From IMG/VR virus record IMGVR_UViG_3300029142_000002, positions 1-54,558 of that record: DNA of 54,558 nucleotides; one strand, given 5' to 3'. The notes beneath the pieces were generated by a model, which was not told where the DNA came from, searched no databases, and saw only the letters and a program-made list of their open reading frames with translations. The translations under genes were made by a program, and so were the position numbers. This document shows positions 4,948 to 54,558 of this stretch, one piece after another; position 1 is the stretch's first letter, and each line of letters begins with the position of its first letter. This DNA is from a virus. Its lineage: Duplodnaviria; Caudoviricetes.

Positions 4948-5418
4948 GTGAACAGGCGAGATATACTAAAGGCTTTTTCGATACTGCCGTTTGTCGGTCC
5001 TCTGAAGCTAGGCGAGCCAGAACAAAAAGCAGTATCAACTGATATTGTGCCTGTTGAGGTTAGCTATGAGGCGATTAATAAGGCTGATATAGTTGGCTAT
5101 GTAGAAGGAGTACCAGCGAAGGATATCACATTACACTTTAATCGTGACTCTGCATTTCCTTCTGCCGCTTTGTTTGCCTTACAATCTTATGAGGTTGAGG
5201 TAGAACTATTTGAACCGTCTGAATTGTTAGAATCAAAGGCGTTTGCAACTACTTCTGCAGGAAGCACAGTCACATGGAAAGCATTCCCTCGGAGTGGTGG
5301 TACATATACAGGTGAAGGCAGGGTCGTTGAGTACAATTTAGATGTACCACATAATGCACCGGAAAGGTGTACCCTGTTGATTCAAGGCATTGGTTCATAT
5401 ACAACGTATGCAGAATGA
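4948..5418 (+). CDS. Tail-tube-like domain protein with twin-arginine-like N-terminus
   Basis: N-terminus MNRRDILK; C-terminal half aligns by eye with the tube protein at 9631-10092; GAGG RBS upstream. Confidence 0.6.
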   Translation: MNRRDILKAFSILPFVGPLKLGEPEQKAVSTDIVPVEVSYEAINKADIVGYVEGVPAKDITLHFNRDSAFPSAALFALQSYEVEVELFEPSELLESKAFATTSAGSTVTWKAFPRSGGTYTGEGRVVEYNLDVPHNAPERCTLLIQGIGSYTTYAE

Positions 5419-5651
5419 CCCCAGCCGAAAAGCTAAATATGGTCCTTGTTAACGGTGGCCTACCTGAGCTTACAGAAGGCGAGGTTAAGCGTGCGCACCG
5501 TTATATGCGCCTGCTCAAGGCTGGTGTTATTGACACCATCGTTCAAAGGCGGGACGAGAAGGATAAGAATGGTGATTTGCGGATTATGGCAACGCAAATT
5601 ATAAAAGACCGCTCATTGTTACAGCTTGTTAAGGACAAGCTTGGTAATTGA
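5415..5651 (+). CDS. Hypothetical protein
   Basis: ATGA overlap with the previous stop; ATG at 5415 is in frame with the listed ORF. Confidence 0.6.
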   Translation: MTPAEKLNMVLVNGGLPELTEGEVKRAHRYMRLLKAGVIDTIVQRRDEKDKNGDLRIMATQIIKDRSLLQLVKDKLGN

Positions 5652-5781
5652 AACATATGTGCATTTAGTGTATATTTAGAACTGCAGGACGGGCACACGT
5701 AAAGCGTGAAAACCTGTCTTGCTTGAAATTGACTATTAGTCCATAAGGGACGCTTTGCCAATCGGCGAGGTGTCCTTTTTT
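5652..5781 (+). promoter_or_regulatory. Putative late promoter and structured leader of the capsid gene
   Basis: AACATATGTGCA-N6-GTATATT, also seen near 41905; hairpin 5684-5722; 15-bp GU-rich hairpin with T-run at 5745-5781. Confidence 0.5.
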
Positions 5782-5787
5782 ACGTTT

Positions 5788-7665
5788 ATGGAAAATCTAG
5801 AATTGGATACAGTTGTCTGGTACGGTGGCGAAGTCAAAGCGCTAGACGACGAAGGGAAAGTAGGTGGCTATCTGGTACGCTTTTCAACAGCAAGCGACCC
5901 CGACTTAGCCGGTGACTACTTTACGAAAGATACCGACTTCGGTTTTGCAACCAAGTCCACTGTTCTTTATCACCACGGCATGGATAAAACCATTAAAAGC
6001 CGCGATTTGGCAGTTGGCGAGCTAAAGATTGATGATGTAGGTGTCTGGATTGAAGGTCAGCTCAAGATGCGTGATGAGTATGAAAAGGCAATATTCGAAA
6101 TGGCAAAGGCGGGTAAGCTCGGCTGGTCATCTGGTACGGCTTCTCATCTTGTATCTCGCAAATCGGTAGGCAGCGCCACCGAGATACTGTCGTGGCCGCT
6201 TGGCTTAGACGCAAGCCTCACCCCTACCCCATGCGAGCCACGTACGCAGGCTATTCCCTTAAAATCACTGAATATCGAAGGTATTTCACTCGAAGTGCCT
6301 ACAAACGCAGAGCTTGAAAGCTCAGAGACAGAGAATGCAGAGGTTGATTCGCTATCGACGGACATTCCTGTAGTAGAAGAAAGCAATGCGGAGCCAACAG
6401 CATCGGCTAACGATGCAACAACCGCAGAACAACAAATGGAAAATACCACACCGCAGGCTGACGACCAGGTGCAGGAAACCCCTGCTATTGAGGTTGAAAA
6501 GCCCGCAGAGACTAAGTCTCAAGAACCATCAAGGATTATCGTTCCTACGCAGAACGTTACTATTCCCCTTGATCAGTACAACGCGCTTATCCAGCAGGAA
6601 GCAAAAGCTTACTCGCAAGAGCCTAAGCGCATCGTTAAGGCGTCCCACGACATTTCTACAGCGAACGTTAACCTGAAGACAGGACTTGGCGACAGCGAAC
6701 AGAAATCAATCGCACACTGGATAAAAACCGGTGACTGGGGCGCAGTAAGCCACATGAAAGCAACCAACGCCACAGGGCAGCAGGTTCTTTCAATCAAGGC
6801 TTCTAATGATACCGACATGAACGTTGGCACTGCTGCCGATGGTGGAAACGCTGTTCCTACGGGGCACTTTCAGAACATCGTAGCGCGCCGTGATGAAATG
6901 ATGCTGGCTAACCGCCTAGGCGTTCAAAACATCCCAGGCGTTGGCACTACTGTTAACGTGCCTGTTGATGCAGAGGATGACGGCGAGTTCGTTTCAACGG
7001 CAGAAGCAGCAGCTAACGACCGTGACGCTCCAGCGCTCGGTACGGTAGCGATGACGCTGGCCAAGTACACGAAGCGTGTAGAATTTAGCGACGAACTACT
7101 GCAGGATGAAGATAGCCGCCTCATGTCATTCATCGAGAACTTTATCTCTCGTGGCATGGCGAAGACGCACAATGATCTTTTGATCACTGAAGTCGAAACC
7201 AACGGCACAAGCCTCAAGTCCTTTGCAGGCACAGCCGCAATCGCAGCCGGTGAGATTCAGGACATCACATTCAATGATAACCTGGCCTACTACCTGGATG
7301 ATTCTGCCTCTGTAGCATGGGTTACACGCCCTGCGACATATGGAGAGATCATCTCTATTCAGGGTAATGAGTTCATTTACGACACCAATCCACAAGGATC
7401 TAGTGTCGCAACCAATGGCGCCAAAGGCATTTTGGCTCAGTATCCGGTGCATTTCTCGAACAAGGTTGAGACGCTTGCCATAGGCAACAAGTCGATCCTG
7501 TTTGGTAACTGGTTCTATGTAGGTGTTCGTAACGCTCCTGAGTTCCAGGTGCTGCGCGATCCTTACTCAGCAGCCACCACAGGCCAGCTTCGCCTTCACT
7601 ACTACTTCCGCACGGTGTACAAAGTACTCCAGGCCGAAGCAATTGGGTACGGCGAACAAGCATAG
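5788..7665 (+). CDS. Prohead protease - major capsid protein fusion (HK97 fold)
   Basis: N-terminal protease (DLAGDYF, VLYHHG, LGWSSG, DASLTPTP), acidic linker, HK97 capsid motifs (GGNAVP, ILFGNW, VLRDPYS). ATG at 5788 preferred to TTG at 5755. Confidence 0.92.
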   Translation: MENLELDTVVWYGGEVKALDDEGKVGGYLVRFSTASDPDLAGDYFTKDTDFGFATKSTVLYHHGMDKTIKSRDLAVGELKIDDVGVWIEGQLKMRDEYEKAIFEMAKAGKLGWSSGTASHLVSRKSVGSATEILSWPLGLDASLTPTPCEPRTQAIPLKSLNIEGISLEVPTNAELESSETENAEVDSLSTDIPVVEESNAEPTASANDATTAEQQMENTTPQADDQVQETPAIEVEKPAETKSQEPSRIIVPTQNVTIPLDQYNALIQQEAKAYSQEPKRIVKASHDISTANVNLKTGLGDSEQKSIAHWIKTGDWGAVSHMKATNATGQQVLSIKASNDTDMNVGTAADGGNAVPTGHFQNIVARRDEMMLANRLGVQNIPGVGTTVNVPVDAEDDGEFVSTAEAAANDRDAPALGTVAMTLAKYTKRVEFSDELLQDEDSRLMSFIENFISRGMAKTHNDLLITEVETNGTSLKSFAGTAAIAAGEIQDITFNDNLAYYLDDSASVAWVTRPATYGEIISIQGNEFIYDTNPQGSSVATNGAKGILAQYPVHFSNKVETLAIGNKSILFGNWFYVGVRNAPEFQVLRDPYSAATTGQLRLHYYFRTVYKVLQAEAIGYGEQA

Positions 7666-24419: not shown

Positions 24420-24442
24420 GCAGCAATGAATTACCGGAATAT

Positions 24443-24472
24443 TGTAACAGTTGCCACACATCAACTGTTACA
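24443..24472. repeat. Perfect 11-8-11 inverted repeat (lox/dif-like site or operator)
   Basis: TGTAACAGTTG-CCACACAT-CAACTGTTACA in a 316-bp intergenic region that holds further GTAACA boxes. Confidence 0.8.
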
Positions 24473-24735
24473 TCATGTGTTGCAGTTGTGTAACACTTAA
24501 AACACTAGTTGATTTGGCGTTAATTGAATCAATTAGGCATCTTTTGTATTTTACTATATCTGCAAACTACAATAGGTGACAGACTTCCCTTTAAGCTGTT
24601 ACCGAAGTCAATACTGAATATCCCGTACCTGTTCAACCTTCTGTGTCAATATCGGACTAGCTACCCGTTACACACGGAACGCTTTGTAGGCGTGCAGGGG
24701 TTGTAACAGTGCGGGAGTCTTCAACGGAGGAATAA

Positions 24736-28251: not shown

Positions 28252-28466
28252 CTGTACCACTTCCTGTACCACATGAAATGCAAAAACCCCGAAATTAGCT
28301 CGCATTGGCTGATTTCGGGGTATTGGAAGTGGTCAGGGGCGGAATGGTTAACGGTTAACTTATCGTTACTTATCACTATCAAAGAGTACATAGGCTGCAC
28401 ATCTTTCAGGCTGTTAGTAATTGGGTTATAATAGTTGGGTGCAAAACTGTACCATAATCCGTACCA
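28252..28466. mobile_element. attP: attP: tRNA 3'-end core flanked by integrase arm-type repeats
   Basis: Core 28329-28345 reads ATTCCGCCCCTGACCAC on the minus strand (T-loop to acceptor end of a tRNA). C(T/C)GTACCA pairs at 28252/28264 and 28447/28459, each 12 bp apart. Adjacent to the integrase. Confidence 0.8.
28282..28320 (-). terminator. Terminator downstream of the attP tRNA fragment
   Basis: CCCCGAAATCAGC...GCTAATTTCGGGG plus TTTTT on the minus strand. Confidence 0.75.
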
Positions 28467-28469
28467 GCA

Positions 28470-29684
28470 TTGGCAAGCTTTAGTATTTACATTCGCAGAG
28501 AGACAAAGGCTAAAGACGGGAAAGCTCAACTCCGACTTTCTATATCTCATGCAAATGTAAGGAAATGGGTAAAACTCTCCATTCGAGTAAAAGAGAGAGA
28601 CTGGAACCCTAAAAATCAATCCGTAAGAAAAGGGGGAAAGGAATCTACTAAGATAAACGAATACATACAGGGCATTGTTGCTAAATGCCATGAAATAGAA
28701 ACTGAAATAATCAGTAAAGGAAGCATTGTGACTGCAGCGCTCCTTAAGGAACTGATTGAAAGAGAGATTGACCCTAGAGCTACCGAGAAAGATTTTATCA
28801 GCTATGCTCGGCAGGTGATTAAGGATTACCAGGAGCTTGGTAAAATCAGCACTTATAAAAGAATGACGGTTATCGTCAATAAACTGGAGGCTTATAGAAA
28901 AGCTGTTCTTTTCGAGGAAATCACACCTACCTTTCTGCGTGCTTATCAAAAGCACTTGATGACTCATTATGGTAATAACTTGAATACTGCTAGCAAGAAC
29001 CTTGCAGGCATTAGGACAATTTTTAGGATGGCTATCAGAGAAGGAGATTTTCCACAGGAGAAGAACCCATTTTTCCAGATAACTCTTAAAACCCAAAAGG
29101 TAACTAAGAAGCACCTGCGACCAGAAGAGATAGATAAAATAATCTCTTATGAGGTTGAGCCGGATAGCGGTATCGATAGGGCGCGAGACTATTTCATGTT
29201 CTCTTTCTACCTGTTCGGTATGCGATTCTCTGACGTTGCTATGCTTAAGCCTGAGCACCTTGTCCATGTTGGCAATGATTTGCGATGCGTCTGGACAATG
29301 GGGAAGGTAGACAGAGAGCACGGCGTTCTGGTTGTGCCACCTGCTAAAAAGATCATTGAAAGGTATCAGCCAGGCGAATACATATTCCCGATTCTTGAGG
29401 GTTATGACGTATCTACGCCAACCAAATTGAGAAATGCTATCGAGTCGAGAAATACAAGGATAAATAATGATCTCAAGAAATTGAAAGAAAGAGCTGGTAT
29501 TGATACCCACATCAGTTTCCATATTGCAAGGCACAGCATTGTAGGCTATCTCCTGCACAAGGATTGGAGCATCTACGATATTTCTAAAGCTCTTGGACAT
29601 TCAACTATCAAACAGACCGAGACTTATTTAAAAGGGTTTGACTTTGGTAACCTAGACGACAAAATGAAGGGTTTATGGTCTTAA
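28470..29684 (+). CDS. int: Tyrosine integrase (arm-binding + SAM-like + catalytic; Bacteroidota-type architecture)
   Basis: GMRFSD, K, FHIARHS, LGHS and TETY catalytic motifs. Confidence 0.95.
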   Translation: MASFSIYIRRETKAKDGKAQLRLSISHANVRKWVKLSIRVKERDWNPKNQSVRKGGKESTKINEYIQGIVAKCHEIETEIISKGSIVTAALLKELIEREIDPRATEKDFISYARQVIKDYQELGKISTYKRMTVIVNKLEAYRKAVLFEEITPTFLRAYQKHLMTHYGNNLNTASKNLAGIRTIFRMAIREGDFPQEKNPFFQITLKTQKVTKKHLRPEEIDKIISYEVEPDSGIDRARDYFMFSFYLFGMRFSDVAMLKPEHLVHVGNDLRCVWTMGKVDREHGVLVVPPAKKIIERYQPGEYIFPILEGYDVSTPTKLRNAIESRNTRINNDLKKLKERAGIDTHISFHIARHSIVGYLLHKDWSIYDISKALGHSTIKQTETYLKGFDFGNLDDKMKGLWS

Positions 29685-42080: not shown

Positions 42081-43778
42081 ATGGCTGCCCCTGTATTTGA
42101 ATCAAGTACCACCGCCGCGACGGGCAACGCCACGTCGCTATCATTGACCTATCCCAGTAGCATAGCGTCAGGGGATGAACTATACGTATGGGCGACAAGT
42201 GACAGAACTACATCAAGCCACGCGGTAAGCGGGTTCACCGTTATCGACGGGCCGCTAACAACGGCGGGCGGATCGAATAGAATCACGAGCTGCTTGCTGG
42301 GCCGCGTAGCAGACGGAACAGAAACAGGATCTGTTAACCTTACATGGTCCACGTCGGAGGAGATGACGGCCATCATGTTTCGTGTCTCCGGTGGCGACAA
42401 CGATACAACGCCACTATTGGCGGCGATACGTGATGAGGGCACAGGCACTGATCCATCAAGCGCAGGCGCCGTGCCTGAGAGCGATGATTATTTGATGGTC
42501 TACCTGGCAGGGCAGGATAAGGGCATGACGGTCGGGACCTATCCCAGCGGTACGTCAAACACCAACAGCGTAGCGCAGTCAAATGGCAGCGGGTGCGCCA
42601 TTGCGAGCAAGTCGCAGACGGGTGACAACTCCACCACATACGGCGATGACACATGGACGATTTCAACGGGCTTTTATAAGACGGCGTGTACGCTGTTTAT
42701 TAAGGCGGCGGCAGGTGGCACTGAGTACAGCGAAAGCGTAAGCGACGGCGCAGAGGCGGGGGAGACCATAACAAGCACACTAACGGTGCCGGTCAGCTTT
42801 TCGGAAGGCGGCAGCGCAGGCGAGACATTTAGCGCGGTGCTTGAGATGGGCGCAAGTATCAGCGAGGGGTCGGCGGCGGGCGATTCATTTAGCGCGGCAG
42901 GATCTATTTACAACACTTCTATAAGTGAAGGCGCAGAAGCGGGCGATAGTACGACAGCGAACCTGGAAATTAATGTCAGCATAACCGAGGGCAGCAGCGC
43001 AGGGGATAGTACAGGTAAGATAGCCGACCTAACAGCAAGCATTTCAGAGGGCGCGAGCGCAGGCGACACAACAACGGCGCTCGCGGTGCTACTTGCATCG
43101 ATCACGGAAGGGGCGCAGGCGGGCGAATCGTGGGCTAATACGCTCATAGTGAACGCCTCTATATCCGAGGGCGCGCAGGCGGGAGACACTTTCGCCGAAT
43201 CGGTAGACGGGACGATAAACGACGCTATAAGCGAGGGCAGCAAGGCAGGGGAGAGCTTTGTGGCTGCTATGTTTATGCTCGCCAGCATCAGCGAGGGCGG
43301 TAGCGCAGGAGATGTTTACACCGCCGCGCTTGAGCTGGCCAAAAGCATTACTGAAGGCGCACAGGCGGGTGATACATTCGCTGCCGCCGTCGAGTCAGGT
43401 GTAAGCACTTATAACGAGTCAATCACCGAAGGATCAGCGGCGGGTGATGCGTTTGCGGCAATCGCTGAGATGGCCAAGGCCATAAGCGAGGGCGCGCAGG
43501 CAGGGGAGAGCATATCACAAAATTTAATACTTAACTCCGTAATCAGCGAGGGCGCGGTTGCTGGCGACTCGTGGTCAGCAATACTTGTGCTTGCGGCATC
43601 GATTACGGAGGGGGCAAGTTCTGGCGATTCGTTCACAATCCCAGGATTAAACGGTTATCTCGTTGCCACTCTTAGCATCATTTCAGCGCTCGCTGGGACG
43701 CTAGCAACTCAGGACGCGCTAAGTGGCAGCACTTCAACAACAGACGCGCTCACCGGTAGCGTCACAACAAATCCATAA
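42081..43778 (+). CDS. Virion fibre-like protein: N-terminal beta-rich domain + 15 x ~20-aa SI(S/T)EGxxAG(D/E) repeats
   Basis: Repeats counted by hand in the translation. Confidence 0.8.
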   Translation: MAAPVFESSTTAATGNATSLSLTYPSSIASGDELYVWATSDRTTSSHAVSGFTVIDGPLTTAGGSNRITSCLLGRVADGTETGSVNLTWSTSEEMTAIMFRVSGGDNDTTPLLAAIRDEGTGTDPSSAGAVPESDDYLMVYLAGQDKGMTVGTYPSGTSNTNSVAQSNGSGCAIASKSQTGDNSTTYGDDTWTISTGFYKTACTLFIKAAAGGTEYSESVSDGAEAGETITSTLTVPVSFSEGGSAGETFSAVLEMGASISEGSAAGDSFSAAGSIYNTSISEGAEAGDSTTANLEINVSITEGSSAGDSTGKIADLTASISEGASAGDTTTALAVLLASITEGAQAGESWANTLIVNASISEGAQAGDTFAESVDGTINDAISEGSKAGESFVAAMFMLASISEGGSAGDVYTAALELAKSITEGAQAGDTFAAAVESGVSTYNESITEGSAAGDAFAAIAEMAKAISEGAQAGESISQNLILNSVISEGAVAGDSWSAILVLAASITEGASSGDSFTIPGLNGYLVATLSIISALAGTLATQDALSGSTSTTDALTGSVTTNP

Positions 43779-46654: not shown

Positions 46655-46917
46655 CAGCCGAGCCCCAAATAGCACAGCCTGAAGACGTTCTGTCGTATGA
46701 TGTTGACCAGATGGAAGCGCAGCTATTGTATGCGTGCATGCTTAAGGGTATGGACTATTATTCGGTGTGGGGTAGGGCGCGCTTTAACATGATATCGATG
46801 AGCTGGCATAGCAGCGGCGCCGTGTGGTATGTAGGCGGCGAGCCGGTGCTGGAGTGGCTAGAGTACACAAAAGAATTTTGCATTCCTGCGCTTGCGCGGG
46901 AGCTGGTAACAAACTAA
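46651..46917 (+). CDS. Hypothetical protein
   Basis: ATGA-coupled. Confidence 0.6.
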   Translation: MTAEPQIAQPEDVLSYDVDQMEAQLLYACMLKGMDYYSVWGRARFNMISMSWHSSGAVWYVGGEPVLEWLEYTKEFCIPALARELVTN

Positions 46918-47197
46918 CCCCCTGAGATTATGAAAAAGACATTTACGCTTGTTGCGTGGCTCGTTGCTGCGCTGTTAACAGTGGCAGCCGTTAACGAGGA
47001 GGCCGTGAATCTTATTATTGCGGGGTGGTAATGACTGAGTTTATTGACAGTCTGAGCCCGATGGAAGCGGTGGTGCTGATCGTTGTATCTGGTGCTCCTG
47101 ATGTGCTTTGGTGTTGCGCTTGGTTATGTGATAACCAGGACAAAAAAGGAAGCTTAAGAAACCGCCCCTTTTAGCTAAAAGATAAAAAGAAATTATT

Positions 47198-47443
47198 ATG
47201 TCTGGAATGCACAAGGATCTGGTCTCAAGATTAATCAGTGCCTCATTGCCAAGTAGTACGCACAAGCTATCTTCAAAGGATAGGGAAATGGCGATTTTCT
47301 ACATAAAAGAAAAGAATCACCATCGTGATATCGAGAAATTGAAAATACTAAGTGATGCTGATTTGTACCACGCGTTCGCACTAGAGCTAAATGAGGATTT
47401 CATGGAGAGTGATTCAGACTGGATAAATACAGGAAAAGTATAG
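47198..47443 (+). CDS. Cassette-like hypothetical protein
   Basis: Preceded by an AGAAACCGCCCC junction repeat. Confidence 0.65.
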   Translation: MSGMHKDLVSRLISASLPSSTHKLSSKDREMAIFYIKEKNHHRDIEKLKILSDADLYHAFALELNEDFMESDSDWINTGKV

Positions 47444-47503
47444 AAGCCAATGAATCAGTTTCGATAATCGAGAAACCGCCCCGGAGGTAAATAAGAAAAA
47501 ACT

Positions 47504-47752
47504 ATGTCAAGACGAAAGCGCAAAATATATTATACCATCAATGTATCCGGATATTGGTGGGCCGGGAGAAGATGGGTAAAAGAGTTTGATGGGCCAGGGT
47601 CTTCTCATAGACGATGCAATACTATGGTATCTGCAACTAAAGCGATGCTCTCTGCTCCTGACAATGCTGTTATGCTACAGATATACAGGCACAATGGTGT
47701 CAGGATGATGAGAAAGTACTTCAAGAAAGAGACCAAAACCGCTTCCGAATAG
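47504..47752 (+). CDS. Cassette-like hypothetical protein
   Basis: Flanked by junction repeats; ends TASE. Confidence 0.65.
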   Translation: MSRRKRKIYYTINVSGYWWAGRRWVKEFDGPGSSHRRCNTMVSATKAMLSAPDNAVMLQIYRHNGVRMMRKYFKKETKTASE

Positions 47753-47815
47753 CACACCATAACCGAATCAGTTTCGATAATCGAGAAACCGCCCCTTGAG
47801 CTAAAGAGGAAAACA

Positions 47816-48058
47816 ATGGAAATAGATTATGGTCCTCAATGCCCAGTCTGTGAGCTTGATTTAGACTGGGAAGACTGCACTAACTGCTGTGATGGATATA
47901 CACACCATGATTGCGGTGAAGATACCTGCTGCTGCCTTTATCCTGATGATAATGTCAAGTGCGATATTTGTGAAGGCGCTACGGGTTGGTGGAGATGTTT
48001 TCAAAATAAATGCGGATCGTGGTTAGGGAAAGAGCTAACTAAAGCCGCTTCCAGATAG
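47816..48058 (+). CDS. Cys-rich zinc-binding cassette-like protein
   Basis: Multiple CxxC motifs; GAGG RBS; ends AASR. Confidence 0.7.
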   Translation: MEIDYGPQCPVCELDLDWEDCTNCCDGYTHHDCGEDTCCCLYPDDNVKCDICEGATGWWRCFQNKCGSWLGKELTKAASR

Positions 48059-48113
48059 CAGCCCGTAAACGAATCGAGAAACCGCCCCCGAGATTTAAAA
48101 AGAGAACTGAATT

Positions 48114-48344
48114 ATGAAATATCTGAGATCAAGACGAGCGTGGAAAGCATGGGCACGCAAAAATCATTTCGTAGGGTGCGAGTATTTCGAAGAGCCTAAA
48201 CGATTTCCTTGCTACGCTTATTTCATAGTTGCAGACTGGCACATGCAGCAAGAAGCATCTGTGTACCTGTATTCGGACGATATTGCAAAAATGGCGATCA
48301 ACGTTGGTCTTAACCTGCATTCAGCAGCTATCGCTTCCGAATAG
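48114..48344 (+). CDS. Cassette-like hypothetical protein
   Basis: Flanked by junction repeats; ends IASE. Confidence 0.65.
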   Translation: MKYLRSRRAWKAWARKNHFVGCEYFEEPKRFPCYAYFIVADWHMQQEASVYLYSDDIAKMAINVGLNLHSAAIASE

Positions 48345-48557
48345 CAGTCCGTAAACGAAGGGTAAGTTTCCTAAATAATGCCTTATCGAAAGCAAACTAA
48401 GAGGTAATGAAATGGATAAAGATATCGTAAAAGCCATGATTAGGCTACACAAAGCAACCGGTAGCTTGAGAAAGAATCTGCGCCGGATGACTTACAGGGA
48501 ATTTAGAAGCAAGCGGTTTTTGATGACCTATTAACCACAAGCACGGAGGTGCTGAAT

Positions 48558-48965
48558 ATGAGAACACAACAAGAAATTATAGACAGAATTAAGGCTAATG
48601 AGGAAGACATGTTTTTCGGTATGGTAGTAATGGATTTATTGCAATACCTGTCTTTTGATAATGCAAAGCAGTTTTTGAAAGAGGATGTAACTATTGCAGA
48701 CTGGGAGGCAGACAAATTGCCAAGACAGTTGACGGAAGAAAATGTTAAGGATGAGATGATAGATTATTTAGACTTTGCATTTGAAAAGGCTCATGGTGAA
48801 AGGGGGCTTTCTGCAGGTCGTTCCATGTATCACTACACCAATTGGTTTTGGCTATTGGGTGACGATGTCCTGGAGGAGATTGGTGACTTGATGCAATATG
48901 AGAATTACGGGTTAGCGCACTTGTGCAGGATAGCTAAGTATCTAGAACAGGAAGTACCAGCTTAA
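48558..48965 (+). CDS. Hypothetical protein
   Basis: GGAGG RBS; ERGLSAGRS motif. Confidence 0.7.
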   Translation: MRTQQEIIDRIKANEEDMFFGMVVMDLLQYLSFDNAKQFLKEDVTIADWEADKLPRQLTEENVKDEMIDYLDFAFEKAHGERGLSAGRSMYHYTNWFWLLGDDVLEEIGDLMQYENYGLAHLCRIAKYLEQEVPA

Positions 48966-49011
48966 TCGCTAAACCATATAGTCGATAAGGCGACGGATAG
49001 GAAATAGACAT

Positions 49012-49512
49012 ATGAAATCACATTGGCAATATATAAGATATTTAATTCGGCATAAGTGGTTTGTGTTGGTAGCTGGATTAAAAGTGCGTGCCCCTTTGTG
49101 GAGATTGATAATTCATGATTGGAGTAAGTTTTTACCTTCTGAGTGGTTCGCTTATGTTGATTATTTCTATCGTGAAGAAGAAACTATATCGGATGATCAA
49201 TTTGTAGATGAGCGTTTCAATATGGCTTGGCTATATCATCAAAACCGTAATAAGCATCACTGGCAATACTGGGTCATGCAAAAAGAAGATGGCGGATTAG
49301 CAGTTTTGCCTATGCCTGAGAAGTATGTTCGTGAAATGGTTGCTGATTGGGCAAGTGCCGGACGCGCTATTAATGGACATTGGGATGTTGCTCAGTGGTA
49401 TCGAAAGAATCGAGACAGAATAAAGATTCACTCTGAAACACGGATGGAAGTTGAACAATTGCTGCAAGTTTATTACGGATATCGCATTAATGTAGAAAAC
49501 AAAGTAGCATGA
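49012..49512 (+). CDS. DUF5662-like HD-domain protein
   Basis: HK...HDWSKF...H..RNKHHWQYW...MP...EMVADW. Confidence 0.75.
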   Translation: MKSHWQYIRYLIRHKWFVLVAGLKVRAPLWRLIIHDWSKFLPSEWFAYVDYFYREEETISDDQFVDERFNMAWLYHQNRNKHHWQYWVMQKEDGGLAVLPMPEKYVREMVADWASAGRAINGHWDVAQWYRKNRDRIKIHSETRMEVEQLLQVYYGYRINVENKVA

Positions 49513-50507
49513 AAAGCCTCCAGCAACACAGCGCAGCATTACCAGCACAGCTCCAGGGACCAGCACGGAAAGCCAAGGCTTACGCAAGTGAGAACCTGCG
49601 AAAGAACACCAAGCGGACGTATAGGGCAGGGTGGGGCGTGTTCATTGCCTGGTGCAAAGACAAGGGCGTAGAATCATTGCCGTGTACTATCGATACGGTA
49701 GCGCTGTTTGTCTCTGATATGGCAGAAAGCCGTAAGTACAATACGCTTGTAGCTTATATGTCCGCAATCAGTGTTGCGCATAAGACCGCTGGACACGACA
49801 CGCCGGTAAGACTAAGGGACGAGCCGCTACGTTCAGTGTGGGGCGGCATAAGAAACACGCACGGCTCGAGTAGCAAAAAGGTGGCGCCGGTTATGGCTGG
49901 TGACCTGGTAAAGATTGGTCAGTATATCGACGGCGCACTTGTTAACGCTACAGCAAAAGACAGGCTCACCCTGCTTAGAGATAAGGCTATTCTGCTAATC
50001 GGGTTTACAGGCGTTATGCGCCGTAGTGAAATTGCAGCTATTGAGATAGATAAAATCCGCTTTACTGACGAGGGCATTGTAATCACGCTGTTCAAGACCA
50101 AAGGCGACAAGAACAACGCAGGCGTAGAGATTCCGGTTTATAAGCAAGAAAGGTTTTGCCCGGTTGATGCAATCAAAGCCTGGATAAAGGCGGCTGGTAT
50201 TCGTTCAGGGTTCGTTTTTCAGCGCGTAGACAGGCACGGCAACGTAGGAGACGGCACAAAAGCAATGTCAGGGCAATCAATAGCGACGATCGTTAAGAAC
50301 TACGCCAGCATTGCAGGGCTCAACGCAAGCGCGGTAAGCGGTCACAGCTTGCGCCGGGGCTGCGCTACGCAGATGGCGCGCAATGGTGAGCCTGATAGAA
50401 TTGTGATGCGTCATGGACGCTGGAAGACGCAGCGCATTGTCGATGAGTATGTAGAGGCAGGAACGCAGTTTTCGGAAGATAATCCAACTAAACGATTGGG
50501 GTTGTAG
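49509..50507 (+). CDS. Second tyrosine recombinase, Cre-like (SAM-like core-binding domain, no arm-binding domain)
   Basis: NTKRTY..W..F..WC N-domain; RD.AILL.GF...RRSEI, KTKGD, SGHSLRRG, HGRW and EY catalytic motifs. Confidence 0.92.
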   Translation: MKSLQQHSAALPAQLQGPARKAKAYASENLRKNTKRTYRAGWGVFIAWCKDKGVESLPCTIDTVALFVSDMAESRKYNTLVAYMSAISVAHKTAGHDTPVRLRDEPLRSVWGGIRNTHGSSSKKVAPVMAGDLVKIGQYIDGALVNATAKDRLTLLRDKAILLIGFTGVMRRSEIAAIEIDKIRFTDEGIVITLFKTKGDKNNAGVEIPVYKQERFCPVDAIKAWIKAAGIRSGFVFQRVDRHGNVGDGTKAMSGQSIATIVKNYASIAGLNASAVSGHSLRRGCATQMARNGEPDRIVMRHGRWKTQRIVDEYVEAGTQFSEDNPTKRLGL

Positions 50508-50509
50508 GT

Positions 50510-50926
50510 ATGGAAATTTATTACTCGATAGATGAAGATCCGGAGGTCTTGAGCCACCAGGACATAGACGAAGTTGTTGAATCATGGGCTAATGACTATT
50601 GGCGAGTCGAGCGCTTGCCTGAAGAACTGGAAATATTCGAATGGCATCCTAAGCCCATGAGGACTCCAGAAGATATTGCTGAAAGTGTGCTAGAAAATAT
50701 CATAGAACGTCTAGATGAAGAGTATCAATACGACATATACGCCGATGGCACAGAGCCTTGCAGTGAGATGAAGAATGCAGCACTGGTTTTCGCACAGGTA
50801 GTTGCAAAGGAATATCCTAATAATGCATGGGCTGTCAAGAAATCATTCAAGGTTAACCCCAGGAAGCATCTGTCAAAGGATTTGCATCATATGGGTTTCA
50901 ATGATCCTGCAATGAAAACAGCCTAG
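50510..50926 (+). CDS. Acidic hypothetical protein
   Basis: 2 nt after the recombinase stop; followed by a palindromic site. Confidence 0.7.
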   Translation: MEIYYSIDEDPEVLSHQDIDEVVESWANDYWRVERLPEELEIFEWHPKPMRTPEDIAESVLENIIERLDEEYQYDIYADGTEPCSEMKNAALVFAQVVAKEYPNNAWAVKKSFKVNPRKHLSKDLHHMGFNDPAMKTA

Positions 50927-50974
50927 CTCTTGATATGATTACCATATCGAAAGTTAAATAAAGAGGTTTGAGGT

Positions 50975-51223
50975 TTGATTATAGGCCCGGTTGAAATACG
51001 ATTTCTTAGCAACAAAGAGAGACTCTTGGCTAGATTTAAGTCCGTTGGACCCAGAGAAGACAGACACAGCCCTATGAGATCACTTAGTGAAATGTTGGGA
51101 TGGGCTTTTGAGAATGGCTATCAGGAAAATCATCATACATATGACGAGGTTCAGGAGTATCTGTTTGGGCTTATAAACAGAGATTGCCCAAACGCTAATT
51201 GTAAAGTTTGCAATCCTGAATAA
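50975..51223 (+). CDS. Hypothetical protein (paralog of 52372-52623)
   Basis: Shared GP.EIR, FKS.GP.EDRHSPM.SL.EM and NGYQE motifs. Confidence 0.75.
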   Translation: MIIGPVEIRFLSNKERLLARFKSVGPREDRHSPMRSLSEMLGWAFENGYQENHHTYDEVQEYLFGLINRDCPNANCKVCNPE

Positions 51224-51281
51224 CAGAAACCAGCAACACCCCACACCCGGCATAGCTGGGGTGGATTAACGGAGGTACGGT

Positions 51282-51644
51282 ATGGGAAATAGGTCAAAAA
51301 CAAAGTCCAGTGACGACTGGGTGCGCACAATGCAGCCTGTTAAGGATGATCAAGGGAAATATTGGGTAGCTGATCCTGATTGGCTGCCTCCAGAAAGAAA
51401 GACTGTATTAGTCTGGATTGAAGAAGAGTTTCTCCCGAGGCTTGGATATGTCAGGTATGCTGCTGGTGATAAAGATAGTCCATATTGGGTTGTTTATACC
51501 GCGCGTAAGGATCATCACCTAGAAGATGATAGCGACCCAGTGAAGGTTGTAGCATATCTAGACTGTGTACCACAGACAAGGCCATCCTTCTTAGATAAAA
51601 ACATGAAGCTAACTCCAGATTCATGGCCTGATTCCAAGCCTTGA
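51282..51644 (+). CDS. Hypothetical protein (DUF551-like LP...VLVW motif)
   Basis: GGAGG RBS; WLPPERKTVLVW. Confidence 0.6.
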   Translation: MGNRSKTKSSDDWVRTMQPVKDDQGKYWVADPDWLPPERKTVLVWIEEEFLPRLGYVRYAAGDKDSPYWVVYTARKDHHLEDDSDPVKVVAYLDCVPQTRPSFLDKNMKLTPDSWPDSKP

Positions 51645-51685
51645 TATTGTCACTTATAGGGGCTTGAGAAAATAAAGAGGCAACC

Positions 51686-51904
51686 ATGAACGATTCAGAA
51701 TTTTATAACATATTAGCCGAGTACACGCATCCAAGTATTCAGCGCGGACAAGTTTGGTGCAGGGAGTGCGGGGGCACACAGAAAGTAAACCCTGCGTATT
51801 CCTTGCAACACGGATGGCCTAAGTGCTGCGGCTATACAATGACAATCGATAGCCCAGAAGAACAACAGAGGTTATCTAACACCGCCACAAAGGCGGAAAA
51901 CTAA
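51686..51904 (+). CDS. Small zinc-ribbon protein
   Basis: WCRECG ... GWPKCCGYTM. Confidence 0.7.
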   Translation: MNDSEFYNILAEYTHPSIQRGQVWCRECGGTQKVNPAYSLQHGWPKCCGYTMTIDSPEEQQRLSNTATKAEN

Positions 51905-51914
51905 AGGAGGTCAT

Positions 51915-52103
51915 ATGTATTGCAGAAGTTTTGAAGAACACAGCATGGAAGTGAGTGATGCTTTAGAAGAGCGCGATGCCAAATGGTTGGCAATGATAAA
52001 AGAGATAAGGCAAGAGATCGACAAAGATTGGACTGCTGATGGCGAAATAGCTTCAGCGCAATGGGGCCTTAAAGAACTGGAAACCCGAATGAAATATAGG
52101 TAA
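51915..52103 (+). CDS. Hypothetical protein
   Basis: AAGGAGG RBS; similar to the C-terminus of 31523-31783. Confidence 0.65.
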   Translation: MYCRSFEEHSMEVSDALEERDAKWLAMIKEIRQEIDKDWTADGEIASAQWGLKELETRMKYR

Positions 52104-52119
52104 ACTAAAGGAGGCAAAA

Positions 52120-52308
52120 ATGATAATTGAAGTTTATTTACACACGGCAGAGCACAGGAGATTTCCTGACAATGTAGCAACGATTAATATCCATGATGAA
52201 GATGGGGAGATTGTAGGTACTGAATCGCAAGCAAAGATAAAGGAACTATTTTCCGAAATATGGGGCGAGCCTGTTTACATCGATTTGGTTAAGGATGTAC
52301 ATCAATAG
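52120..52308 (+). CDS. Hypothetical protein
   Basis: AAGGAGG RBS. Confidence 0.65.
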   Translation: MIIEVYLHTAEHRRFPDNVATINIHDEDGEIVGTESQAKIKELFSEIWGEPVYIDLVKDVHQ

Positions 52309-52371
52309 GTTTTGATAAGTCTTCGTTATCGAAAGCAAAATGAATAGAGCGAATAATAAACGAGTCAAACT

Positions 52372-52623
52372 GTGCGAATAGGTCCTTTTGAAATACGCTG
52401 GCTAACTCCTGAACAGCGACTTTTAGATCAGTTTAAATCTACTGGCCCAAGTGAAGACAGGCACAGTCCAATGAAATCGCTTGGCGAAATGATTCATTAT
52501 GCATACGACAATGGCTATCAGGAAAAAGACCATACGTTTGATGAAGTGATGAAATATATGTTCAGGCTGATAAATAGATTCGAAATGGGAGATGGTAGAA
52601 ATCTTACAGACGACAAAGGGTGA
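52372..52623 (+). CDS. Hypothetical protein (paralog of 50975-51223)
   Basis: Same shared motifs as 50975-51223. Confidence 0.75.
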   Translation: MRIGPFEIRWLTPEQRLLDQFKSTGPSEDRHSPMKSLGEMIHYAYDNGYQEKDHTFDEVMKYMFRLINRFEMGDGRNLTDDKG

Positions 52624-52779
52624 ATTATGAGCAAAACTTGGAGACCAGATTACAATCAAGAGGCGCGAACTCATGAGGCAAGATGGGCAAATGAAGCTAG
52701 GAACACTTAAGCAGCTTGTTGATGAACTAACCCAAGAACCAAAACAGTAAATTTTCGTATCTTGTAGCACATAGGATAT

Positions 52780-53088
52780 ATGTACCTATGTGAGCACGTC
52801 CCCCCTACTGCTGCAATTCTGTCACAAACAACCTATCCAGCAGCATTGACAATTCCTGAAAAGTTTCTAACCGTGGAACACGTAGCCTATCAGTCAGCCG
52901 ATTGGGATGGGCAGATAGAGCACGGTTTCATAATAGACGACGGTACGCAAGGCTGGTGCTTTACACTTACCGGCGATAGCGTCTTTCACAGCGGCACTAA
53001 TGTAGTTATTCGCACGCTGGAATATGATGCGCGTGAGTATCCTGTCAAACTGCACTCTAAAGACCAGGCTTTTCAGTCATTTAACTAA
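52780..53088 (+). CDS. Hypothetical protein
   Basis: AGGA RBS; CGTATCTTG promoter-like motif ~25 nt upstream. Confidence 0.6.
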   Translation: MYLCEHVPPTAAILSQTTYPAALTIPEKFLTVEHVAYQSADWDGQIEHGFIIDDGTQGWCFTLTGDSVFHSGTNVVIRTLEYDAREYPVKLHSKDQAFQSFN

Positions 53089-53098
53089 CCTCCCCGAT

Positions 53099-53437
53099 AT
53101 GAGCACAAAGCACAATCTTACAGAGCTTCCACAATTGCCAACGCCAGGAGAACGATTAGCTGAAATGATCGAGAAGCAAGGGCAGTATTTAGCAGATGTT
53201 GCTGCATCGAAGCTATACGCGAAAAGAGGCAATCTAAAAGACATTGCAACTGTATGTACTGAGATGATCAGTAACATGCAGGAGTACTACAATAACTGGA
53301 GTCAAGAAAAGCCGGTGCCGGTGCAGCAGAAAGTAACCAGGCGCGTTGTGGAGGAAGTACGCGAACCGGTGCCAGCGCTGGATAATAGCTGGCTGCCTGG
53401 TGCTGCTGAGAAAGCTATGTATGGGGAGGCTGGGTGA
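53099..53437 (+). CDS. Hypothetical protein
   Basis: ATG at 53099 preferred, after the stop of the previous gene. Confidence 0.6.
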   Translation: MSTKHNLTELPQLPTPGERLAEMIEKQGQYLADVAASKLYAKRGNLKDIATVCTEMISNMQEYYNNWSQEKPVPVQQKVTRRVVEEVREPVPALDNSWLPGAAEKAMYGEAG

Positions 53438-53638: not shown

Positions 53639-54548
53639 ATGGCGAATAATTATCCAGCAGTCATAGAGACAAAAGATGGCGACATTATAAAGCTGCTCAA
53701 CGACGGCCCTCCGTCTGTTGTCCCTGTTGATCGTTTGGTATTGCACGAAGCAAATCCGCGCCAGGGTGATGTTGGTGCGCTTGCTGTGTCGTACAAAGAG
53801 AACGGGTTCTATGGTTCAGTAATAGTAGATGCACGCGACATGCGCGTGTTAGCGGGTAATCACCGTGTAAAGGCTGCTGTTGCTCTTGGCATGGAGAAGA
53901 TTCCTGTGCAGCTCATAAAGACAGATAGCGAAATGCACGCTATCAAGATACTACTAGCTGACAATAGGCACAGCGACCTGGCCACGTATGATAATGAGGT
54001 CTTGGCAGAGTTATTACAGACGGTGGCGCTGTCTGATGAGGGATTACTGGGTACTGGTTTTGATGGCGACGATGTAGATGAATTACTAAAGGAGGTAGGC
54101 TTTGCTAGTGATCCAGAAGAAGCACCAGAAGCGGAGATAGACAGGGCTGAAGAATTGCGCGTTAAGTGGGGCGTTGAGCATGGACAACTGTGGCAGATTG
54201 GGCGGCACCGGCTGCTTTGCGGTGACAGTACGAATAACGATGATGTGGAGCGGCTGCTGGGTGGGAATGAGCCCGCTTTAATGGTTACAGACCCACCGTA
54301 TGGCGTTGAATATGATCCCAAATGGCGCGCAGCGGTAGGTATCAACAAAAACAAGAATAAAATGGGCAAAGTCCAGAACGATGATCGTGCGGATTGGACT
54401 GAAGCATGGGAATTATCGCCTGCTAATGTTGCTTACTGCTGGCATGCCGACCGGCATGCCAGTGAGGTGCAGACTAGCTTAGAAAGCGCAGGTTTTGAGA
54501 TGCGTAGCCAAATTATATGGGCTAAAGACCGCATGGCGTTGAGTCGTG
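53639..54548 (+). CDS. N-terminal part of ParB-N + N4/N6 DNA methyltransferase (not in the ORF track because it runs off the end)
   Basis: Translated by hand: HEANPR...VLAGNHRVKAA...LADNR (ParB-like), GRHRLLCGDST, VTDPPYG; in frame with 12..557. Confidence 0.9.
54351..54548. repeat. Terminal direct repeat, right copy
   Basis: Matches 1-198. Confidence 0.95.
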
Positions 54549-54558
54549 ACTGGGAAAC
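54544..54558 (-). other. Amplification primer remnant (artefact)
   Basis: Reverse complement GTTTCCCAGTCACGA matches the common random-amplification (SISPA/round A-B) tag; the sequence leaves the terminal repeat at 54549. Confidence 0.85.

What the first reader, a model, noticed from the sequence alone, without database searches (positions are those of the whole stretch)
47452..52623. Candidate phage gene-cassette system: 9-7-9 palindromic sites around a Cre-like recombinase
Seen: five intergenic sites share arms of two types (T(C/T)GATA(A/T) and CCTA(A/T)) around a variable 7-bp spacer (48367, 48980, 50928, 51639, 52310), and two more carry a TTTCGATAA arm (~47459, ~47772). Each lies at or just after a stop codon and before the next RBS. 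Sites 48367 and 48980 are inverted relative to each other and share GCCTTATCGA. Two paralogous genes (50975, 52372) each follow a site ending TATCGAAAG. A second tyrosine recombinase, not needed for attP integration, sits in the middle. Established: tyrosine recombinase core sites are inverted arms around 6-8 bp spacers, and integrons tolerate variable sites by recombining folded single strands. Inference: an integron-like capture and shuffling array using a non-IntI recombinase. The alternatives are repressor operators or RNA-processing hairpins, and the differing spacers argue against simple lox-type exchange.
Basis: partly seen in the sequence, partly recalled or inferred. Interest (0 to 1): 0.85.

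Follow-up and report, generated by a model that had tools for sequence, protein, structure and literature searches.

The report
Multi-copy lox-like sites around phage recombinase
A temperate aquatic phage carries several copies of the short palindromic DNA site that its Cre-like recombinase family normally keeps as a single copy next to the gene, placed exactly at gene junctions, which suggests (but does not prove) that small genes are inserted and swapped there.

Summary
The window holds a family of 9-7-9 dyads (consensus GTTTYGATAA-N7-TTATCRAAAG) at gene junctions between 47.4 and 52.4 kb, around a Cre-like tyrosine recombinase (49509-50507).

Two sites are true palindromes (50927-50953, 52309-52335). 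The others are half or hybrid sites.

Decisive new evidence: in 32 of 86 loci encoding homologues of this recombinase, a GATWA-N6/7-TWATC dyad lies within 450 nt upstream of the gene. That is 32 of all 48 pattern hits, in 4.6% of the sequence (p about 1e-31). The experimentally proven SCre/SloxM1 site has the same core. So these are very probably the recombinase's own lox/dif-type sites.

One site per gene is the family norm; an array is unusual.

For cassette insertion:
- complementary half-good sites flank one or two genes;
- one such pair, in a second phage, has identical spacers;
- two sites are conserved between phages whose flanking genes are unrelated.

Against:
- all spacers in the window differ;
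- contigs show no rearrangement;
- the second phage shows no recombinase in its 26 kb.

An integron-type folded-strand mechanism is not supported. The GAAACCGCCCC motif is a separate element.

The parts
49509..50507 (+). Cre-like tyrosine recombinase, 332 aa. It is the second tyrosine recombinase of the phage.
   Evidence: PF00589 E 2e-17. Best solved relatives are Cre chains, E 5e-11; the alignment shows R171, K198, H279-x-x-R282, W305 and Y314 opposite Cre's catalytic residues. Not an integron integrase by NCBIfam.
52309..52335 (+). Canonical 10-7-10 dyad site GTTTTGATAA|GTCTTCG|TTATCGAAAG, between the stop of 52120-52308 and paralogue B.
   Evidence: 33 of 37 nt identical to a site in phage record G006 whose flanking genes are unrelated.
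50927..50953 (+). Canonical dyad site, GATAT variant: CTCTTGATAT|GATTACC|ATATCGAAAG. It starts at the stop of 50510-50926 and lies before paralogue A.
   Evidence: As RNA it would fold well (z -5.0).
48366..48392 (+). Hybrid site: variant left arm GTTTCCTAAA, spacer TAATGCC, good right arm TTATCGAAAG.
   Evidence: (I19). It aligns with the perfect 9-9-9 palindrome of G006.
48979..49005 (+). Hybrid site of the complementary kind: good left arm TAGTCGATAA, spacer GGCGACG, variant right arm GATAGGAAAT. It lies directly upstream of the DUF5662-recombinase operon.
   Evidence: (I19).
51638..51664 (+). Weak site: good left arm CCTTGATAT (contains the stop codon TGA), spacer TGTCACT, poor right arm TATAGGGGC.
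   Evidence: The predicted hairpin uses AAGCCUU/GGGGCUU instead.
47458..47467 (+). Lone left-type arm GTTTCGATAA fused to the G-type motif. An identical copy lies at 47771-47780.
   Evidence: (D9).
47771..47780 (+). Second copy of the lone arm GTTTCGATAA.
   Evidence: (D9).
47158..48088 (+). Four GAAACCGCCCC motifs (47158, 47472, 47785, 48078) before ribosome-binding sites of small genes. This is a separate junction element, not a dyad site.
   Evidence: The same motif occurs x4 in G006. A variant, GAAACCACCCC, occurs x3 in G011, which has no recombinase and no dyads.
49012..49512 (+). DUF5662 gene overlapping the recombinase start. It is also next to the recombinase in G001.
   Evidence: Pfam E 2e-41. 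53% identity to G001 2521-3051. Absent from 5 more distant recombinase-bearing phage records.
50975..51223 (+). Paralogue A (82 aa), downstream of site 50927.
   Evidence: 54% identical to 52372-52623. No family in Pfam or PHROGs.
52372..52623 (+). Paralogue B (83 aa), downstream of site 52309.
28470..29684 (+). First tyrosine recombinase (404 aa), the likely prophage integrase.
   Evidence: PF00589 at 29112-29633, E 1e-16. XerC/D-like by NCBIfam.

Best explanation
The 9-7-9 dyads are double-stranded lox/dif-type core sites of the Cre-like recombinase 49509-50507: two protomers bind the inverted arms ...YGATAA / TTATCR... around a 7-bp crossover spacer. In this recombinase family, which is very common on plasmids, one such site sits next to the gene.

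In this phage the site has multiplied at gene junctions of the accessory region ahead of the packaging genes. The most likely way to get that pattern is recombinase-mediated insertion, and occasional excision or exchange, of small circular promoterless gene cassettes. A cassette would enter a resident site by ordinary lox-type exchange between sites with matching spacers. Each insertion leaves two hybrid sites flanking the insert. Later decay of one arm or of the spacer freezes the insert, as lox66/lox71-type sites do.

The outcome resembles an integron array; the chemistry is Cre-like.

Shown: the sites, their placement, and their family-wide link to the recombinase gene.
Inferred: binding, recombination, and the cassette history.

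Sub-claim odds: sites are the recombinase's cognate type, about 0.8; cassette insertion or exchange, about 0.4.
For: (1) Family-wide link between site and gene.
- Profile A7 found 561 relatives in genomes; the best 80 loci were taken, plus 6 phage loci, 86 in all.
- 32 of the 86 have GAT[AT]A-N5-9-T[AT]ATC within 450 nt upstream of the gene. That is 32 of all 48 hits in 930,514 bases, inside 4.6% of the sequence, binomial p 1.7e-31.
- The spacer is 7 nt in 26 and 6 nt in 6. The extended arms match at 9 or more of 11 positions in 25 of 32.
- L004 has acttttGATAA|TGCAGAG|TTATCacaaga, the same arm as in the window.
- Two annotated plasmids each hold exactly one such dyad near the gene.

(2) SCre/SloxM1, proven by experiment, reads ...GTCCGATA ACTGTAAT TATCGGAC... 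(PMC3082901, passage). That is the same core as L372 and L373.

(3) The enzyme is Cre-like, with the full catalytic set.

(4) Co-occurrence in relatives.
- G001 (recombinase 62% identical) has 2 dyads, 0.4 kb before and 0.65 kb after the gene.
- G011 (portal 62% identical, 45.9 kb) has neither recombinase nor dyads.

(5) Cassette signatures.
- G006 sites CTTTCGATAA|AATAGCG|ATTTGGAAAG and CTTACGCCAC|AATAGCG|TTATCGAAAG flank one 83-aa gene. Their spacers are identical and their good and bad arms are complementary.
- Window sites 48366 and 48979 have attL/attR topology around two genes.
- Sites 52309 and 48366 have orthologues in G006, in the same order, with unrelated genes on every side.

(6) An array is unusual for the family. 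Only 5 of 86 loci have 2 or more pattern hits, and the extra hits lack extended arms.
Against: - No two sites in the window share a spacer, so no exchange between them is possible now by classical rules.
- Contigs of 4 runs laid on 46900-53100 show only the reference order and no joint between sites. Contigs cannot show rare forms.
- G006 carries 3 canonical and 2 half sites but no tyrosine recombinase in its 26,145 bases, including the whole stretch from the GAAACCGCCCC array to the large terminase. The record is 33% complete.
- The arms here are shorter and less perfect (8-9 of 10) than in many family members.
- Two sites (G001 at 87, G006 at 3436) have 9-nt spacers, outside the family's 6-7.
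- The 'second arm type' may be a decayed first type.
- The identical spacer in G006 lies in a 40-nt stretch that is similar overall, so a duplicated junction could explain it.
- The family default is one site on a plasmid next to stability genes: 2306 plasmid records match. That points to multimer resolution rather than cassette capture.
Confidence: 0.42

Rival explanations
1. The dyads are the recombinase's sites, but they serve genome cyclisation or multimer resolution, not gene capture. Several sites with different spacers lie close to the packaging start, so more headful-packaged, terminally redundant genomes would carry one site twice. Each site recombines only with its own copy, and the differing spacers prevent deletions between sites.
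For: - All spacers differ.
- In the window, G001 and G006 the sites lie within about 1.5-9 kb upstream of the terminase genes.
- The window's ends overlap by about 200 nt, as expected of a circularly permuted or circular assembly.
- The family is typical of plasmids, beside stability genes.
- P1 Cre/loxP near pac is the model; this is recalled, not from a call.
Against: - It does not explain half sites, complementary hybrid pairs, or the strict placement between stop codon and ribosome-binding site.
- The sites lie upstream of the terminase genes, whereas packaging usually runs downstream (recalled).
- The phage also has an ordinary integrase.
Confidence: 0.2
2. The dyads are cis-regulatory junction elements: operators of another DNA-binding protein, promoter-plus-stem-loop cassettes of the PeSL kind, or RNA hairpins. 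They are conserved because they control the accessory genes. Gene swapping at them happens by homologous recombination, and the recombinase is a bystander.
For: - They lie in a fixed orientation 6-36 nt before start codons.
- TTGATA-N18-CAAAAT at 52312 fits a sigma-70 pattern 9 of 12.
- PeSLs have a stem-loop between -35 and -10, run from stop codon to Shine-Dalgarno sequence, flank ORFans and form mini-circles without a dedicated recombinase (PMC2839356, passages; PMC4122927, abstract).
- G006 has sites without a visible recombinase.
- 4 of 7 palindromic sites have a T.G at the same stem position on the coding strand.
Against: - The same dyad sits beside recombinase genes in unrelated genomes and plasmids. 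A phage-specific regulator or promoter would not explain that.
- The arm sequence is conserved without covariation.
- Half sites cannot fold.
- G006 site 11073 has a C-A mismatch on the coding strand.
- The -10-like hexamer abuts the Shine-Dalgarno sequence at 48393 and 50954, so a transcript started there would lack it.
- Promoter-like hits in the region are no more frequent than in shuffles: 20 against 18.9.
- No Rfam family matches.
Confidence: 0.2
3. It is an integron-like system in the strict sense: the sites are recombined as folded single strands, like attC, which would tolerate the different spacers.
For: Palindromic sites at the 3' side of promoterless genes, all in one orientation. 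The spacers differ.
Against: - A folded site would be a 9-bp stem with a 7-nt loop, that is one binding box, not the two boxes (R and L) of attC. The attC architecture is recalled, not from a call.
- The recombinase gives no match to the integron-integrase models.
- Family members keep simple duplex-type dyads like the proven SloxM1 site.
Confidence: 0.03
4. Chance similarity, or leftovers of a local duplication, with no function.
For: Sites 50927 and 52309 precede paralogous genes and could have been copied with them (D12, 37). The 23-nt inverted pair ranks only 19th among inverted repeats of the 14.5-kb region.
Against: - Shuffle controls.
- TTATCGAAA is tied for the most frequent 9-mer of G006, at 6 copies.
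- The sites are conserved across phages with unrelated flanks.
- The family-wide link to the recombinase gene.
Confidence: 0.02

Closest known systems
Cre/loxP of phage P1 and its relatives SCre/SloxP and VCre/VloxP
   Same: - A Cre-like enzyme (PDB Cre E 5e-11).
- Inverted arms around a short asymmetric spacer.
- The site lies near the gene.
- SloxM1 (CTCGTGTCCGATA ACTGTAAT TATCGGACACGAG; PMC3082901, passage) shares the CGATA...TATCG core.
   Different: - Only about 24% identical to Cre.
- Arms of 9-11 bp rather than 13.
- The gap between GATAA and TTATC is 7 nt here; it is 6 in SloxM1.
- Several copies, with different spacers and with half sites, instead of one.
- Whether SCre belongs to this clade was not tested.
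Single-recombinase Xer systems with the site beside the gene (XerS/difSL, XerH/difH). Recalled, not from a call.
   Same: One tyrosine recombinase, and one dyad with ATAA...TTAT inner ends next to its gene. Weak NCBIfam hits to XerD, XerC and XerS, all far below their cut-offs.
   Different: Those resolve chromosome dimers at one site. Here the gene is in a phage and on plasmids, and the window has an array of sites.
Integron (IntI, attI, attC cassette array)
   Same: An array of small, mostly promoterless genes in one orientation, each bounded by a recombination-type palindrome that starts at or in the stop codon.
   Different: - No IntI signature.
- The sites are 27-bp duplex dyads, not 57-141-bp attC (sizes recalled).
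- No attI or Pc next to the recombinase was seen.
- The recombinase sits in the middle of the array.
lox66/lox71-type (left-arm / right-arm mutant) site pairs used to make insertions stable
   Same: Complementary good/bad arms on the two sites that flank an insert, with the same spacer (G006 10507/10807). The window pair 48366/48979 has the same topology. Such mutant sites 'for inversion and integration' are mentioned in PMC3082901 (passage).
   Different: Those are engineered sites. Here the pattern is natural and could also come from decay or from a duplicated junction.
PeSL regulatory cassettes of T4-type phages
   Same: Conserved stop-to-Shine-Dalgarno intergenic elements with a stem-loop, flanking ORFans in variable regions and serving as exchange points (PMC2839356, passages).
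   Different: PeSLs are strong sigma-70 promoters plus terminators, and they recombine by homology without a dedicated recombinase. Here promoter evidence is weak, and the motif is the family site of a recombinase encoded on the spot.
Shufflon (Rci/sfx) of IncI plasmids. Recalled, not from a call.
   Same: A tyrosine recombinase, many sites with a 7-bp spacer, and only one arm well conserved.
   Different: Shufflon sites are inverted and lie within one gene's 3' end, and they only invert. Here most sites are direct and intergenic. The invertase model hit is far below its cut-off (E 0.006, 16 bits against 221).

Membership tests
Tyrosine recombinase, Cre-like | PF00589 catalytic domain with the residues R, K, H-x-x-R, W/H, Y | tested here: met
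   PF00589, 63.8 bits against a cut-off of 27.1. The alignment to Cre puts R171, K198, H279, R282, W305 and Y314 opposite Cre's catalytic residues. R171, K198, H279, R282 and Y314 are invariant in 14 homologues.
lox/dif-type site-specific recombination module | Inverted arms around a 6-8-bp spacer, close to the recombinase gene | tested here: met
   Sites 50927 and 52309 (10-7-10, 8 Watson-Crick pairs + 1 T.G of 10) lie 0.4 and 1.8 kb after the gene. The same dyad type lies upstream of the gene in 32 of 86 family loci.
lox/dif-type site-specific recombination module | The recombinase binds the arms and exchanges strands in the spacer | not testable with these tools
Contigs show no joints at the sites.
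Integron | IntI-type integrase | tested here: not met
   NCBIfam gives no hit of 49509-50507 to TIGR02249 or NF011946. The best hits are generic Xer-type models, far below their cut-offs.
Integron | attC architecture: two pairs of boxes R''-L''...L'-R' that fold as a single strand | tested here: not met
   The sites are single 9-10-bp arm pairs with a 7-nt spacer. The attC definition is recalled.
Integron | Array of promoterless cassettes in one orientation | tested here: met
   Junction table.
PeSL-type regulatory cassette | Consensus sigma-70 promoter plus stem-loop terminator | tested here: inconclusive
   Only 52312 (9 of 12) and 50912 (9 of 12) are flagged. Hits are no more frequent than in shuffles (20 against 18.9), and no terminator-like site lies at the dyads.
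Shufflon / DNA invertase | Invertase-type recombinase and inverted sites within one gene | tested here: not met
   NF007370 scores 16.3 bits against a cut-off of 221. The one inverted pair flanks two whole genes.

The most novel reading that the evidence does not exclude
This is a natural multi-site lox system. A Cre-like recombinase uses an array of mutually incompatible (heterospecific) lox-like sites at gene junctions to capture single-gene circles. It also swaps whole blocks between co-infecting phages by double exchange at two shared sites, as in recombinase-mediated cassette exchange.

The window phage and the otherwise unrelated phage G006 both turn up in run X3. They share two orthologous sites in the same order, and these bracket entirely different gene sets.
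Probability: 0.25. Interest if true: 0.85.

Novelty: new variant of a known kind. Interest (0 to 1): 0.68.

Why it matters
If the array is active, it would be a second route to gene-cassette arrays, independent of integrons. It would be built on ordinary Cre-type duplex recombination, and it would sit in phages, where the origin of mosaic 'ORFan' regions is an old open question.

It would also offer a ready-made set of natural, mutually incompatible lox-like sites with their enzyme.

Even the minimal result is useful. It predicts the recognition site (arms ending in CGATAA, 7-bp spacer) for a large and mostly unannotated family of plasmid and phage 'site-specific integrases'. That prediction is directly testable.

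Tried and rejected
- DNA search of the 6.2-kb region against deposited phages: no match.
- Single-protein locus searches found nothing: recombinase in viral and genome contigs, paralogue pair, portal. The recombinase profile in metagenome contigs also found nothing.
- Pattern scans for the dyad:
  - 98 single hits, mostly chance or other phage families.
  - 76 loci, only G006 with 3 matches.
  - 120 or more single hits across all phyla, so no host clue.
- L066/G007 looked similar downstream of its site but shares no genes and has one site only.
- Paired GAAACCGCCCC scans gave only G006, one high-GC provirus terminator, and 53 metagenome contigs. The contigs inspected are GGGGCGG-GAAA-CCGCCCC tetraloop hairpins or tandem repeats. 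None has A-type arrays, and only two have any protein match to the window, neither to the recombinase.
- Reads:
  - Only contigs were available, and no joints at sites were seen.
  - One joint, 50512 to 52660, comes from another organism's contig with a 28-nt side, too weak to use.
  - Parts of the stretch without cover in runs X3, X5 and X6 are not interpreted.
- My earlier leading idea, a regulatory operator or RNA hairpin, was demoted.
- The general test for any 10-bp dyad upstream of the gene was only mildly enriched: 35 of 81 loci against 59 of 278 control windows.
- DUF5662 as a partner of the recombinase: absent from 5 other recombinase-bearing phage records.
- Supplementary files of PMC3082901 and PMC2839356 (site maps, PeSL lists) were not seen.

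Full report
**What the window is**

The window is an IMG/VR virus record of 54,558 bases. Its first ~200 bases repeat its last ~200, so the assembly is probably circular or circularly permuted, at about 54.35 kb. It is a temperate tailed phage.
- It has portal, capsid and tail genes, and a tyrosine integrase at 28470-29684.
- A long rightward operon of small genes runs into the packaging genes.
- Runs that hold it are aquatic metagenomes.

**The observation**

The sites sit between a stop codon and the next ribosome-binding site. The left arm often contains the stop codon itself (TGA or TAA inside TGATAA). All 9 intergenic gaps of 41 nt or more between 47.4 and 52.4 kb hold a motif or hairpin, while the short gaps hold only a Shine-Dalgarno sequence.

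The motif is far above chance.
- TATCGAAAG occurs exactly 4 times, all on the + strand within 4 kb. With one mismatch there are 27 matches against 12.7 +/- 3.4, and 0 of 100 shuffles reach 27.
- WTATCRAAAG and its complement each give 18 matches against about 8 in Markov shuffles.

The sites are not all alike.
- 50927-50953 and 52309-52335 are true dyads.
- 48366 and 48979 are hybrids of one good arm and one variant arm.
- 51638 has only a good left arm.
- 47458 and 47771 are lone arms inside an identical 31-nt repeat that continues into a different motif, GAAACCGCCCC.

**The recombinase**

49509-50507 is a tyrosine recombinase (PF00589).
- Its closest solved relatives are Cre chains (E 5e-11). 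All catalytic residues are aligned, including Cre's Trp.
- It is not IntI-like.
- It is the second PF00589 gene of the phage.
- Homologues are very common on plasmids: 2306 records, 1697 of them covering at least 80% of the query. In two annotated examples the gene lies beside toxin-antitoxin stability genes.

**Relatives of the phage**

| Record | Size, completeness | Relation to the window | Cre-like recombinase | Dyad sites | G-type motif |
|---|---|---|---|---|---|
| G001 | 26.9 kb, partial | recombinase 62%, portal 59%, DUF5662 53% identical | yes | 2, bracketing the recombinase (at 87 and 2220) | not seen |
| G011 | 45.9 kb, 60% complete | portal 62% identical | no | none | 3 copies of the variant GAAACCACCCC, ~280 nt apart |
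| G006 | 26.1 kb, 33% complete | different structural genes; 4 weak protein matches | none seen | 3 canonical, 2 half | 4 copies |

- In G001 the gene order differs from the window, and the other accessory genes and the terminase are unrelated.
- The G011 result shows that the G-type motif is a separate element, independent of the recombinase.
- In G006 all sites lie at gene junctions upstream of its terminase. TTATCGAAA is tied for its most frequent 9-mer (6 copies). It shows no tyrosine recombinase at all.
- Window site 52306-52342 is 33 of 37 identical to a G006 site, spacer partly included. Window site 48366 aligns with a perfect G006 palindrome. In both cases the genes on either side are unrelated.

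**The turning point**

Up to that stage I favoured a regulatory reading: an operator, a PeSL-like cassette or an RNA hairpin. I then took a profile of 14 homologues to the genome collection. It found 561 relatives; I kept the best 80 loci and added 6 phage loci, 86 in all.
- In 32 of the 86, a dyad GAT[AT]A-N5-9-T[AT]ATC lies within 450 nt upstream of the recombinase gene.
- These are 32 of all 48 hits in 930,514 bases, although the upstream windows are only 4.6% of the sequence (binomial p 1.7e-31).
- The gap is 7 nt in 26 loci and 6 nt in 6. The arms extend to 9-11 matches of 11 in 25 of 32.
- Examples: acttccGATAA|TATATAG|TTATCggaagt (Bacillaceae); gtgtccGATAA|CATTTCA|TTATCggacac (Salinivenus); acttttGATAA|TGCAGAG|TTATCacaaga (phage L004, the same arm as in the window).
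- The outer arm changes from lineage to lineage, while the inner CGATAA/TTATCG stays.
- The experimentally proven SCre site SloxM1 reads CTCGTGTCCGATA ACTGTAAT TATCGGACACGAG (PMC3082901, passage). Its authors found it by the same logic: a palindrome close to the gene.

A phage regulator or a promoter cannot explain a dyad that travels with this gene through plasmids, chromosomes and phages of many phyla. The dyads in the window are therefore, with about 0.8 probability, the cognate lox/dif-type sites of this recombinase.

One caution: in L432 a GATAA-N5-TTATC repeat surrounds a ParB-like gene and is probably a partition site. It has another spacing and was not among the 32.

**What the array means**

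One site per gene is the norm. Only 5 of 86 loci have a second pattern hit, and those lack extended arms. The window, G001 and G006 are the exceptions.

Three features fit insertion of circular cassettes at resident sites.
- Integration of a circle into a site must leave two hybrid sites. G006 has exactly that around one 83-aa gene: good-left/poor-right and poor-left/good-right, with the identical spacer AATAGCG. I estimate the chance of an identical 7-mer among the few dozen within-genome pairs at about 0.004. This is my own estimate, not a tool result.
- The window pair 48366/48979 has the attL/attR topology: variant-left/good-right ... good-left/variant-right. The two variant arms are themselves a split palindrome (TTTCCTA...TAGGAAA). 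Their spacers differ, though.
- Orthologous sites persist while everything around them has been replaced.

Against activity now:
- All spacers in the window differ.
- Contigs of four runs show only the reference order.

So the array may be largely frozen.

**Rivals**

- A cyclisation or resolution role for several mutually incompatible sites near the packaging genes explains the differing spacers well. It does not explain the half sites.
- The regulatory or PeSL-like reading keeps some weight. The elements share PeSL's stop-to-Shine-Dalgarno layout (PMC2839356, passages). Promoter evidence is weak, no Rfam family matches, and there is no covariation.
- The integron-type folded-strand mechanism is not supported.

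**Comparison with what is known**

- It works like Cre/loxP or SCre/SloxP in chemistry (inferred), and like an integron or a PeSL region in outcome.
- It is a member of the tyrosine-recombinase, Cre-like class.
- It fails the tests for integron, shufflon and PeSL membership.
- A natural array of lox-type sites with different spacers at gene junctions is not something my two literature searches on this point turned up. Those searches were narrow, so absence from print is not shown.

**Verdict**

- Observation: confirmed.
- Interpretation: partly supported. The sites are recombinase sites (likely); they form a cassette system (possible, about 0.4); the mechanism is integron-like (unlikely).
- Novelty: new variant of a known kind.
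- Interest: 0.68.

Noticed in passing
window 1-200 and 54351-54550: The two ends of the record are a direct repeat of about 200 nt, so the genome is probably circular or circularly permuted (about 54.35 kb), although it is classed as linear. Inside the repeat, the palindrome CTGGCATGCC-GGTC-GGCATGCCAG has its 4-nt centre flipped (GACC) in the other copy. Primer-like letters (GTTTCCCAGTCACGA) stand at the contig end and at loose read ends.
   Followed up: partly
window 47158, 47472, 47785, 48078; G006; G011: The motif GAAACCGCCCC stands just before the ribosome-binding sites of a run of small genes about 300 nt apart. The same motif occurs x4 in G006, and a variant (GAAACCACCCC) x3 in G011, which lacks the recombinase. 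It has no dyad partner. Elsewhere in metagenomes the same letters are mostly the 3' half of GGGGCGG-GAAA-CCGCCCC tetraloop hairpins. Its function is unknown; it may be a leader or translation-control element.
   Followed up: partly
window 47732-48361: Three unrelated small genes (47504-47752, 47816-48058, 48114-48344) share a conserved block of about 38 nt. It spans their last codons, the stop codon and the following 20 nt (68-79% identity). The junction element therefore reaches into the coding ends.
   Followed up: no
window 52768-52792: Another 9-7-9 palindrome of a different sequence, CACATAGGA|TATATGT|ACCTATGTG, overlapping the start of ORF 52780. No counterpart in G001. The 8-mer CACATAGG occurs once in G006, inside its methylase gene.
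   Followed up: partly
window 24441-24500: A perfect 11-8-11 palindrome, TGTAACAGTTG|CCACACAT|CAACTGTTACA, with further TGTAACA-type repeats. It lies in the 316-nt gap between the last late gene and 24736. It looks like an operator or attachment region.
   Followed up: no
window 28287-28320: A 13-8-13 inverted repeat with one mismatch (CCCCGAAATTAGC...GCTGATTTCGGGG), 150 nt upstream of the integrase gene. It could be a terminator or part of attP.
   Followed up: no
window 42081-43778: A 565-aa ORF built of about 60-nt (20-residue) repeats rich in Gly, Ala, Glu and Asp, in a region of 55% G+C. No PHROG match.
   Followed up: no
G001 (L002) 3739-3768 and 4341-4374: Two further intergenic palindromes with 8-nt spacers that resemble each other: TACCTTACGTG|TAGCAAAT|CACGTAAGGCA and TTAGGATAGCTAA|TCACAAAT|TTAGTTAGCCTAA. 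Each stands right before a start codon.
   Followed up: no
L432 1086-2050 (Pseudonocardia contig): GATAACGCCGTTATC occurs two to three times around a ParB-like gene next to a family recombinase. It is probably a partition site. This is a reminder that GATAA...TTATC dyads of other spacing have other binders.
   Followed up: partly
window 50479-50512 and about 52660-52687; run X3: A 5.6-kb contig of another organism matches the last 34 nt of the recombinase gene region, and then 28 nt inside the small ORF 52627-52750, skipping 2147 nt. This may be a relative with fewer accessory genes, but the evidence is too weak to use.
   Followed up: no
window 933-2141; G001 5324-6571; L311: The large terminase of the window is unrelated to that of G001, although the portal and tail genes are 55-60% identical. 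A 4.9-kb contig (L311) has the window's terminase at 84% identity. There is a mosaic break between the recombinase region and the portal.
   Followed up: no
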